From positions 131,467-195,466 of IMG/VR virus record IMGVR_UViG_3300028591_000086: a DNA stretch of 64,000 nucleotides. One strand, 5' to 3'. Of this stretch, positions 13,453 to 13,535 are shown one piece after another (position 1 is the stretch's first letter; the number at the start of each line of letters is the position of its first letter). A program made the position numbers and the translations under genes. The notes under the pieces were generated by a model. That model did no database searches. It was not told the origin of the DNA and was given only the letters and a program-made list of their open reading frames with translations. This DNA is from a virus. Its lineage: Duplodnaviria > Caudoviricetes.

Positions 13453-13535
13453 AGGAGCGTATCAGCGCGGTCTTATAAACCGTCCAGTATAATGCTTGTA
13501 ACTGGTGGATGTGGGTTCAAATCCCACCGCTCCTA
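13453..13535 (+). tRNA. Non-canonical D-armless tRNA-like RNA, anticodon TAT (Ile), long variable arm
   Basis: AGGAGCG/CGCTCCT acceptor; only 7 nt (TATCAGC) before the GCGGT-CTTATAA-ACCGT arm; CCAGT/ACTGG extra stem; GTGGG-TTCAAAT-CCCAC T-arm. Confidence 0.7.

What the first reader, a model, noticed from the sequence alone, without database searches (positions are those of the whole stretch)
13453..13535. D-armless tRNA-like RNA with UAU anticodon and a GG moved behind a long variable arm
Seen: only TATCAGC separates the acceptor and anticodon stems. The loop CT-TAT-AA is canonical, and a CCAGT/ACTGG stem is followed by TGGAT just before the T-arm. Known: bacteria normally read AUA with lysidine-modified CAU, and D-armless tRNAs are a mitochondrial feature. 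Inference: the relocated TGG may rebuild the elbow contact with the T-loop, giving a rearranged tRNA-Ile that bypasses TilS (ATA codons are abundant here), or a decoy for anticodon nucleases.
Basis: partly seen in the sequence, partly recalled or inferred. Interest (0 to 1): 0.75.

Follow-up and report, generated by a model that had tools for sequence, protein, structure and literature searches.

The report
Phage isoleucine tRNA with rewired D-arm
This 83-base gene of a jumbo phage is most likely a working isoleucine tRNA for the AUA codon. Its D-arm is not missing: its two halves lie on either side of the anticodon arm, a layout that tRNA finders miss and that I found in no paper.

Summary
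The fold it proposed, D-armless with a long variable-arm hairpin, is not the conserved one.

- **Family:** I found 21 distinct homologues in viral contigs, and 28 IMG/VR contigs match a covariance model. They share a long-range D-stem. In the window it is C11 A12 G13 C14 with G42 C43 U45 G46.
- **Covariation:** the three core D-stem pairs are paired in 23 of 23 sequences, each with compensatory changes. The nearest homologue, L136, shows C11-G46 changed to G11-C46.
- **D-loop after the anticodon arm:** it holds an invariant A (A14-like), an R that covaries with the base before the T-stem (the R15:Y48 pair), and an invariant GG (G52 G53).
it pairs in only 53% of cells, with no compensation.
- **Membership:** a model built without the window scores it 74.7 bits (E about 1e-18). 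Canonical tRNAs score 30 bits or less.
- **Selection:** the gene is 83/83 identical in a relative whose flanking DNA is 67-89% identical.
- **Same slot in sister phages:** they carry a canonical tRNA with a CAU anticodon, of the lysidine tRNA-Ile2 type.
- **Codon demand:** ATA makes up 43% of the phage's Ile codons.

Expression and charging are untested. Earlier notes of this scan reported the same layout on other phage DNA, and I tested it here independently.

The parts
13453..13459 (+). Acceptor stem, 5' strand (positions 1-7)
   Evidence: Pairs with 13528-13534. All 7 pairs show compensatory changes in the family and 98% of cells are paired. The four bases upstream differ at three positions between the window and L004, while the gene is identical.
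13460..13462 (+). U8 A9 U10 linker
   Evidence: U8 and A9 are invariant, and U10 is nearly invariant, in 21 sequences.
13463..13466 (+). D-stem strand C11 A12 G13 C14. It stands where canonical positions 22-25 do and runs straight into the anticodon stem.
   Evidence: Pairs with 13494-13498. Pairs 11-46, 12-45 and 13-43 are standard in 23 of 23 sequences, each with changes on both sides (MAFFT alignments). L136 has G11 with C46.
13467..13483 (+). Anticodon arm: 5-bp stem and 7-nt loop C-U-UAU-A-A. The anticodon UAU is at 13474-13476.
   Evidence: Seen in the sequence. The stem covaries in the family.
13484..13486 (+). Helix X, 5' strand (C32 C33 A34)
   Evidence: Pairs with 13506-13508. It reads GGA/UCC in five long-group homologues and CCA/UGG here and in L136. 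All cells are paired and two pairs are compensatory. It crosses the D-stem, which makes a pseudoknot.
13487..13493 (+). Connector of 7 nt (G35-U41) from helix X to the second D-stem strand
   Evidence: Conserved as (T/A)ATAAT in the long group. The short group has a shorter GAAA-type connector instead.
13494..13498 (+). D-stem strand G42 C43 (U44 bulged) U45 G46. It stands where canonical positions 10-13 do.
   Evidence: Covaries with 13463-13466. Position 44 is U here, G in L136 and absent in the other long-group members.
13499..13505 (+). D-loop-like segment U47 A48 A49 C50 U51 G52 G53. By position, A48 is like A14, A49 like R15, and G52 G53 like G18 G19.
   Evidence: TA and GG(T) are invariant in 21 sequences. 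The R at this position covaries with the base before the T-stem: AU 14, GC 7, other 2; AU 7, GC 7 in the short group.
13506..13508 (+). Helix X, 3' strand (U54 G55 G56).
   Evidence: Covaries with 13484-13486.
13509..13510 (+). A57 (invariant; A21-like by position, an inference) and U58 (Y48-like partner of A49)
   Evidence: A57 is an invariant column. The 49:58 pair is counted.
13511..13527 (+). T-arm: 5-bp stem with loop TTCAAAT
   Evidence: Seen in the sequence. L136 carries a compensatory change, G-C to U-A.
13528..13535 (+). Acceptor stem, 3' strand, and discriminator A83. No CCA is encoded.
   Evidence: Seen in the sequence. The discriminator is A in all UAU members.
13539..13556 (+). 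Trailer hairpin 3 nt after the gene; a possible processing or termination signal
   Evidence: Scored as terminator-like. It survives a C-to-T change as a G-U pair in L004. A different hairpin sequence stands at the same place in L002.

Best explanation
The 83-nt gene encodes a functional elongator tRNA, most likely tRNA-Ile(UAU) reading AUA. Its core is wired in a non-cloverleaf order.

**Layout.** Compared with a canonical tRNA, the block 'D-stem 5' strand plus D-loop' (canonical 10-21) and the block 'D-stem 3' strand plus anticodon arm' (canonical 22-43) have swapped places along the chain.
- After U8 A9 U10, the strand C11-C14 acts as the D-stem 3' strand and runs directly into the anticodon stem.
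- After the anticodon arm come a connector, the other D-stem strand (G42-G46), a normal-looking D-loop (UAACUGG) and then the T-arm.
- The long-range D-stem encloses the anticodon arm.
- A 3-bp helix X (32-34 with 54-56) crosses the D-stem, which makes a pseudoknot.

**Shown:** the sequence layout, the covariation of both helices and of the R15:Y48-like pair, strong conservation, and a phage-specific family.

**Inferred:**
- The parts rebuild the usual L-shape: U8-A14, R15-Y48, and G18 G19 contacting the T-loop.
- RNase P and the CCA-adding enzyme mature the RNA, and IleRS charges it.
- It supplies AUA decoding for a phage in which ATA is 43% of Ile codons, without needing lysidine synthesis by TilS.
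For: **Family membership**
- Model R2 was built from five other phages, without the window, L004 or L136. It scores the window 74.7 bits, E = 3.7e-18, against 30 bits or less for canonical tRNAs in the same search.

**Long-range D-stem**
- Pairs 11-46, 12-45 and 13-43 are standard in 23 of 23 sequences. Pair types are CG 20/AU 2/GC 1, GC 14/CG 7/AU 2 and GC 17/CG 5/UA 1.
- MAFFT alignments that were not fitted to any structure give the same result.
- Sliding the 3' partners by 1-3 columns drops pairing from 91-98% to 34-51%.
- L136 differs from the window by the coupled change C11-G46 to G11-C46, and by a compensated T-stem pair.

**Core tRNA tertiary signatures kept in the moved segment**
- Invariant TA and GG(T).
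- R15:Y48-like covariation: AU 14, GC 7.

**Helix X**
- All cells are paired, with two compensatory pairs.

**Purifying selection**
- The gene is 83/83 identical between the window and L004. The neighbouring coding sequence is 87% identical, the upstream spacer 74% and the downstream stretch 67%.

**Slot equivalence**
- In L002 and L003 the same position, after the same conserved spacer RNA, holds a canonical 73-nt tRNA(CAU).
- Its best E. coli match is an annotated tRNA-Ile with a CAT anticodon.

**Demand**
- ATA is 40.9 per 1000 codons and 42.7% of Ile codons.
- No other Ile tRNA is confidently called in the 195-kb record, and no other match to R2.

**Context and distribution**
- Members sit inside phage tRNA arrays.
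- One locus carries adjacent rewired GAU and UAU genes.
- The long-group pattern finds 14 family members in viral contigs. Its 18 hits in 185,579 bacterial and archaeal genomes all fail R2.
Against: - There is no expression, end-mapping, modification or aminoacylation data.
The RNA could misfold or switch between the two.
- Helix X rests on one split between two clades among 7 sequences.
- The window's D-stem needs a bulged U44.
- The family alignment A9 was fitted to the model's structure, so its counts lean towards that structure. The MAFFT alignments do agree with it.
- Ile identity is inferred from the anticodon, A73, and a U12-A23-like pair that only the window, L004 and L136 have. The E. 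coli-type determinants C4-G69 and C29-G41, recalled from established knowledge, are not present.
- An unmodified U34 could also read AUG.
- The record is only about 70% complete, so another Ile tRNA could lie outside it.
Confidence: 0.72

Rival explanations
1. It is a tRNA-shaped RNA with the same rewired fold that does not act in translation. It could be a decoy or sponge for a host anticodon nuclease or another tRNA-targeting defence, a substrate that titrates a modification enzyme, or a processing punctuation mark in the RNA array.
For: - The gene sits in a 2-kb ORF-free array with other odd tRNA-like RNAs. One has a 46-nt anticodon loop. A relative has one with a GUAA tetraloop in place of the anticodon loop.
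- Phage tRNAs as counter-defence are established in the literature, from my own knowledge.
- No charging data exist.
Against: - A decoy would need only the part its target recognises. Here the acceptor stem, A73, the T-arm, the D-stem, the R15:Y48-like pair and the GG are all under covariation or are invariant.
- The anticodons seen in the family are ordinary sense anticodons that AT-rich phages need: UAU, GAU and UCG.
- It replaces a canonical tRNA-Ile2-like gene at the same slot.
- I know of no anticodon nuclease specific for tRNA-Ile(UAU).
Confidence: 0.13
2. One reading: a truly D-armless tRNA with a 7-nt replacement loop and a long variable-arm hairpin (32-36 with 49-53), as in mitochondrial D-armless tRNAs.
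For: - It is the minimum-free-energy fold, -28.5 kcal/mol with z = -3.25.
- The hairpin is intact in the window, L004 and L136.
- The Rfam alignment treats the D-arm as deleted.
Against: - In the seven long-group sequences the hairpin pairs in only 52.9% of cells, with no compensatory change. It cannot form at all in the 14 short-group members.
- It would bury the invariant GG and leave the covariation of 11-13 with 43-46 unexplained, including the coupled change in L136.
Confidence: 0.07
3. It is a decaying tRNA pseudogene: a D-arm deletion plus an insertion in a former tRNA-Ile gene, with no function.
For: - The Rfam score is borderline.
- tRNA finders do not call it.
- The slot holds an ordinary tRNA in sister phages.
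- tRNA content around it changes between relatives.
Against: - It is 83/83 identical across relatives whose flanks have diverged.
- Compensatory changes occur in every helix across 23 sequences from at least 28 viral contigs.
- L136 keeps its pairing through coupled substitutions.
Confidence: 0.03

Closest known systems
Canonical AUA-decoding tRNA-Ile of bacteria and phages: tRNA-Ile2 with lysidine-CAU, and the rare tRNA-Ile(UAU) of Mycoplasma mobile (PMC3575796)
   Same: - 7-bp acceptor stem and 5-bp T-stem, with discriminator A73.
- Anticodon loop C-U-NAU-A-A.
- T-loop TTCAAAT, and G18 G19-like and R15:Y48-like elements.
- The same genomic slot as a tRNA-Ile2-like gene in sister phages.
   Different: - There is no local D hairpin.
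- The D-stem 3' strand lies before the anticodon arm, and the D-stem 5' strand plus D-loop lie after it.
- Rfam scores it 29.9 bits, against 72 bits for the sister phage's canonical gene.
Mitochondrial D-armless tRNAs, such as metazoan mt tRNA-Ser(AGY) (review PMC4394434)
   Same: No D hairpin between the acceptor and anticodon stems; a short linker of 7 nt stands there instead.
   Different: - Here the linker pairs with a downstream strand to rebuild a D-stem.
- A full D-loop motif with an invariant GG is kept behind the anticodon arm.
- The T-arm is fully canonical.
allo-tRNAs with 8/4 or 9/3 acceptor/T branches (Mukai et al., PMC5389517)
   Same: They are non-standard tRNAs found in bacteria and their phages by metagenome mining, with unusual anticodon sets. 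Some are shown to be active in translation.
   Different: allo-tRNAs change the split between the acceptor and T stems, as the paper's abstract states. This gene is 7/5, and it is the order of the D-arm segments that differs.
Circularly permuted tRNA genes of the red alga Cyanidioschyzon merolae (PMC3978253)
   Same: tRNA segments lie in a non-standard order in the gene.
   Different: There the 3' half precedes the 5' half and processing restores a normal cloverleaf. Here the 5' and 3' ends are in their normal places and the mature RNA itself would be permuted internally.
Class II tRNAs (Leu, Ser, Tyr) with a long variable arm
   Same: Extra nucleotides, 27 here, lie between the anticodon stem and the T-stem. 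In this member they can fold into a hairpin.
   Different: The extra segment carries the D-stem strand and the D-loop motif, and its local hairpin is not conserved.
tRNA-like domain of tmRNA (Rfam RF00023)
   Same: Acceptor stem and T-arm with a reduced D region. The Rfam match is weak: 19.1 bits.
   Different: The score is far below the gathering cut-off of 47. There is no mRNA-like domain and no G3:U70 pair, and a complete anticodon arm is present.

Membership tests
Rewired (D-arm-permuted) phage tRNA family, defined here by model R2; I found no published description | A significant score against a covariance model built from other members only | tested here: met
   74.7 bits, E = 3.7e-18. 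Canonical tRNAs score 30 bits or less.
Rewired (D-arm-permuted) phage tRNA family, defined here by model R2; I found no published description | A 7-nt linker U8-A9-U10-NNNN whose last bases pair with a strand 3' of the anticodon arm (the long-range D-stem) | tested here: met
   C11-G46, A12-U45, G13-C43 and C14-G42, with U44 bulged. The family pairs are standard in 23 of 23 sequences with compensatory changes. L136 carries the coupled change.
Rewired (D-arm-permuted) phage tRNA family, defined here by model R2; I found no published description | The D-loop motif TA-R-(1-3 nt)-GG-T directly after that strand, with R covarying with the base before the T-stem | tested here: met
   The window has TAACTGGT, with A49 and U58. 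Family counts are AU 14, GC 7, other 2.
Rewired (D-arm-permuted) phage tRNA family, defined here by model R2; I found no published description | Function as an aminoacylated tRNA in translation | not testable with these tools
   No expression or charging data.
Canonical tRNA (Rfam RF00005 cloverleaf) | Acceptor stem, anticodon arm and T-arm with their standard lengths and loop signatures | tested here: met
Canonical tRNA (Rfam RF00005 cloverleaf) | A local D hairpin between position 9 and the anticodon stem | tested here: not met
   15 model positions are replaced by 4 nt in the Rfam alignment. ARAGORN does not call the gene.
Canonical tRNA (Rfam RF00005 cloverleaf) | A score at or above the gathering cut-off of 29 bits | tested here: inconclusive
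   29.9 bits in a 201-nt search. It is not listed in the window-wide gathering run.
Mitochondrial-type D-armless tRNA | An unpaired D-replacement loop, and no D-stem or D-loop elements elsewhere in the molecule | tested here: not met
   The linker covaries with a downstream strand, and the D-loop motif is present.
Class II tRNA (long variable arm) | A conserved variable-arm hairpin together with a normal D-arm | tested here: not met
   The hairpin pairs in 52.9% of cells with no compensation. There is no D hairpin.
allo-tRNA (Mukai et al. 2017) | An 8/4 or 9/3 acceptor/T-stem configuration | tested here: not met
   The window is 7/5. The definition is taken from the abstract of PMC5389517.
tmRNA (RF00023) | A gathering score of 47 bits, an mRNA-like domain with a tag reading frame, and a G3:U70 pair | tested here: not met
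   19.1 bits, with the whole middle of the model deleted. ARAGORN finds no tmRNA. Pair 3-70 is G-C.
tRNA-Ile identity (E. coli rules, from established knowledge) | A35, U36, A37, A38, A73, U12-A23, C29-G41 and C4-G69 | tested here: inconclusive
   Present: A35, U36, A37, A38, A73, and a U12-A23-like pair (U45-A12). Absent: C29-G41 (here G-C) and C4-G69 (here A-U). The host and its IleRS rules are unknown.

The most novel reading that the evidence does not exclude
A translationally active tRNA that is not a cloverleaf. Phages maintain a lineage of tRNAs, here Ile-UAU, in which the D-arm halves are swapped around the anticodon arm and closed by a long-range helix and pseudoknot, yet the canonical L-shaped core is rebuilt. 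The rewiring may let the phage supply AUA decoding independently of host TilS. It may also escape host enzymes or defences that recognise the standard D-arm.
Probability: 0.6. Interest if true: 0.85.

Novelty: new variant of a known kind. Interest (0 to 1): 0.78.

Why it matters
The cloverleaf is treated as universal for cytoplasmic and bacterial-type tRNAs, and gene finders and Rfam assume it.

- **tRNA architecture:** a conserved, phage-specific lineage that keeps every core contact but strings the segments in another order would show that the L-shape, not the cloverleaf, is what selection preserves.
- **Annotation:** phage tRNA inventories, and codon-usage or host-range inferences drawn from them, would be systematically incomplete.
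- **Natural experiment:** the family shows which connectivity RNase P, synthetases, EF-Tu, modification enzymes and the ribosome actually need.
- **This phage:** the gene would be the only AUA decoder encoded in the available record, in a genome where ATA is 43% of Ile codons. It replaces a gene that depends on lysidine.

Tried and rejected
**Homologue searches that found nothing useful**
- Three exact or semi-exact pattern and protein scans of viral contigs: the anticodon loop plus T-loop pattern, the spacer-RNA pattern, and the 432-aa neighbouring protein.
- The spacer-RNA pattern in metagenome contigs found one contig, L010. It has the spacer but no tRNA behind it.
- The relative encoding P0005 (91% identical) and the longest contig of P0008 could not be fetched, because the sample files were too large.

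**Readings considered and dropped**
- In-situ origin. I first thought the gene arose from the sister phage's tRNA(CAU) by a D-arm deletion and a 22-nt insertion, because the anticodon arms are similar. I dropped this once a widespread family with the same layout appeared. Cassette replacement at the slot is more likely.
- Swapped hairpin roles. Hairpin 1 as a D-arm analogue and hairpin 2 as an anticodon arm with a 12-nt loop was suggested by how model R1 aligned canonical tRNAs. I rejected it because hairpin 2 is not conserved, while hairpin 1 has the exact 5-bp stem and 7-nt loop of an anticodon arm throughout the family.
- Alternative long-range stem 10-13 with 50-53. It is 96% paired in the long group but mostly through G-U pairs, with no compensation. 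The G11 of L136 breaks it, and G52 G53 stay invariant while 11-13 vary in the short group.
- tmRNA-like and allo-tRNA readings.

**Other controls**
- The inserted 22-mer is not a repeated mobile element: it occurs once in the genome at up to 5 mismatches.
- No TilS-type domain (PF01171) is found in the record.
- The long-group pattern in 185,579 bacterial and archaeal genomes gave 18 hits. None matches R2.

Full report
**Context**

The window is the last 64 kb of a 195,466-bp IMG/VR virus record that CheckV estimates as about 70% complete. G+C is about 28%. Genes lie almost all on one strand, and most proteins match no Pfam family.

A multisubunit RNA polymerase beta subunit and virion proteins match PHROGs. 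The polymerase is about 32% identical to those of Bacillus phages AR9 and PBS1. This is a jumbo phage distantly related to that group.

The finding lies in an ORF-free RNA array that holds:
- tRNA-Asp(GUC) at 13184-13259, with an identical copy at 14244-14319.
- tRNA-Gln(UUG) at 13266-13337.
- tRNA-Leu(UAA) split by a group I intron at about 14535-14835.

**Checking the observation**

- A 7-bp acceptor stem with discriminator A.
- Seven bases, TATCAGC, before a 5-bp stem whose 7-nt loop is C-T-TAT-A-A.
- CCAGT and ACTGG, which can pair.
- TGGAT, then a standard T-arm.

ARAGORN does not call the gene in bacterial or mitochondrial mode. The window-wide Rfam run does not list it. In a 201-nt search Rfam tRNA scores 29.9 bits against a cut-off of 29. 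That alignment deletes the D-arm and inserts 24 nt in the variable region. The tmRNA model gives a weak 19.1 bits.

**Close relatives and the slot**

Relatives were found through the upstream 432-aa protein.

- **L004** (88% protein identity) carries the gene 83/83 identical. Identity to L004 around it is lower:

| Region | Identity to L004 |
|---|---|
| Neighbouring coding sequence | 87% |
| Upstream spacer RNA | 74% |
| Downstream stretch | 67% |

  Three of the four bases just upstream of the gene differ. The tRNAs in front of it are different genes.
- **L002 and L003** (64% identity) keep the same spacer RNA and a trailing hairpin. The slot between them holds a canonical 73-nt tRNA(CAU) that scores 72 bits in Rfam. 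Its best E. coli match is an annotated tRNA-Ile with a CAT anticodon, the lysidine type.
- **L008 and L009** also carry such a tRNA(CAU).

So the position normally holds an AUA or AUG-family tRNA. ATA is 40.9 per 1000 codons and 42.7% of Ile codons in this phage. No TilS-type domain is found in the record.

**The lead from earlier notes, and my own test**

While inspecting the sequence I saw that the 5' linker could pair with downstream strands. Notes of this scan on other genomes describe phage tRNAs whose D-arm is 'rewired'. I treated those notes as a lead only.

Parsing the hits gave a family with a 7-nt linker TATNNNN after a 7-bp acceptor stem. A narrower pattern found 14 contigs of a 'long' subgroup.

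That subgroup includes L136, from a 385,934-bp contig. L136 differs from the window at five positions:
- C11 to G together with G46 to C.
- U44 to G.
- One T-stem pair changed from G-C to U-A.

**Structure supported by covariation** (gene position n is window base 13452 + n)

| Element | Positions | Evidence |
|---|---|---|
| Long-range D-stem | C11 A12 G13 C14 with G42 C43 U45 G46 (U44 bulged) | Long group, MAFFT, 7 sequences: all cells paired, two pairs compensatory. Short group, MAFFT, 14 sequences: three pairs all paired, all three compensatory. Model-based alignment, 23 sequences: the three core pairs standard in 23 of 23, with two or three pair types each. |
| Control | 3' partners slid by 1-3 columns | Pairing over the whole structure falls from 91-98% to 34-51%. 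|
| D-loop after the second strand | U47 to G53 | Invariant TA, then R, 1-3 nt, invariant GG, then T. |
| R15:Y48-like pair | R49 with the base before the T-stem | AU 14, GC 7, other 2. This is the signature of the canonical R15:Y48 tertiary pair. |
| Helix X | 32-34 with 54-56 | CCA/UGG here, GGA/UCC in five relatives; all cells paired. It crosses the D-stem. |
It cannot form in the short group. |
| Alternative stem | 10-13 with 50-53 | No compensation; broken by the G11 of L136. |

**What the layout means (inference)**

- The strand before the anticodon arm runs directly into the anticodon stem, as canonical positions 22-25 do.
- The strand behind the anticodon arm is followed by the D-loop, as canonical positions 10-13 are.
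- The gene therefore reads as a canonical tRNA in which blocks 10-21 and 22-43 have changed places.
- The three new joins would connect residues that are neighbours in the canonical core: 9 to 22, 43/44 to 10, and 21 to 48. On this reading an L-shape with U8-A14, R15-Y48 and the G18 G19 to T-loop contacts is sterically plausible.
- In the window the pair that corresponds to 12-23 is U-A, and position 9 is A.
- The invariant relocated GG is G52 G53 (13504-13505).

**Membership and distribution**

- Model R2 was built from five long-group members only. It scores the window 74.7 bits (E = 3.7e-18) and L136 67 bits. Canonical tRNAs score 30 bits or less.
- Twenty-eight IMG/VR contigs hold a match of 38 bits or more. 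The pattern scan that supplied them was truncated.
- Members sit inside phage tRNA arrays.
- Two further matches carry other anticodons: GAU next to a UAU copy in L103, and UCG in L079.
- The long-group pattern gave 18 hits in 185,579 bacterial and archaeal genomes. None matches R2.
- The phage's own record has only this one match.

**Literature**

Full-text searches found no description of phage tRNAs with a displaced or permuted D-arm. The nearest items were:
- allo-tRNAs with 8/4 or 9/3 branches (PMC5389517).
- Circularly permuted tRNA genes of a red alga (PMC3978253).
- Mitochondrial D-armless tRNAs (PMC4394434).
- tRNA-Ile(UAU) of Mycoplasma mobile (PMC3575796).

The library is incomplete, so this is not proof that the layout is unpublished.

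**Weaknesses**

- No expression, processing or charging data exist.
- In this member the nearest-neighbour model favours the local hairpin, -27.4 against -21.3 kcal/mol.
- Helix X rests on one split between two clades.
- Ile identity is inferred.
- Why phages would rewire a tRNA is unknown. Independence from TilS and escape from host tRNA-targeting enzymes are hypotheses.

**Verdict**

The gene is best read as a functional, non-cloverleaf tRNA-Ile(UAU) of a phage-specific family (confidence 0.72). The scan has noted this layout before on other phage DNA.

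Noticed in passing
window 36996-37106 (+): A tRNA-like gene scores 44.7 bits in Rfam. Its acceptor, D and T arms are normal, but 46 nt stand where the 7-nt anticodon loop should be. ARAGORN in intron mode guesses Ile(AAU) with a 38-nt intron.
   Followed up: partly
window 14535-14835 (+): tRNA-Leu(UAA) is interrupted in the anticodon loop by an ORF-less group I intron of about 213 nt. Rfam Intron_gpI scores 41.2 bits, below its cut-off of 50.
   Followed up: partly
window about 14839-14960 (+); L002 about 12340-12390; L008:9713-9787; L010:81-155 (-); L006 about 3880-3950: A tRNA-like 'shell' has a T-arm-like hairpin (GGGAG, a TKCAACT-type loop, CTCCC). 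It recurs next to tRNAs in all the relatives I examined.
   Followed up: no
window 13338-13452 (+); L004 about 11637-11753; L002 about 12474-12584; L010 about 1345-1450 (-): A spacer RNA of about 100 nt after tRNA-Gln has conserved ends and a variable middle. In L010 it is followed by a terminator-like hairpin and an ORF instead of a tRNA.
   Followed up: partly
L006:3576-3643 (+): A tRNA-like gene in a related phage has acceptor, D and T arms, but a GUAA tetraloop closes the anticodon stem.
   Followed up: no
window 13539-13556 (+): A 7-bp hairpin followed by a T-rich tail starts 3 nt after the tRNA. It is kept as a G-U variant in L004, and a different hairpin sequence stands at the same place in L002.
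   Followed up: partly
L103:1331-1407 (-) and L079:2864-2942 (+): Rewired tRNAs of the same layout carry other anticodons: GAU (Ile), adjacent to a UAU copy, and UCG (Arg).
   Followed up: partly
L019:504-586, L081:8614-8697, L038:6469-6553, L037:1165-1247: tRNA(UAU)-like genes have a 10-nt linker, a GGGGG or GGG run and UGGU behind the anticodon arm, and an encoded CCA. They may be a third subgroup of the same design. R2 scores them 25-35 bits.
   Followed up: no
window 13181-13259 and 14241-14319 (+): Two identical tRNA-Asp(GUC) copies lie 1060 bp apart. They bracket tRNA-Gln, the rewired tRNA and an ORF-free stretch of about 700 nt.
   Followed up: no
G000:C1:1096-2721 (outside the window): ARAGORN in intron mode calls a tRNA-Leu with a 1534-nt intron. 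Rfam matches only the 3' part, at 2657-2715.
   Followed up: no
L010:434-524 (-): A 91-93-nt tRNA-like gene is called Thr(UGU) by ARAGORN, but it contains a CUUAAAA Leu(UAA)-type loop and irregular arms.
   Followed up: no
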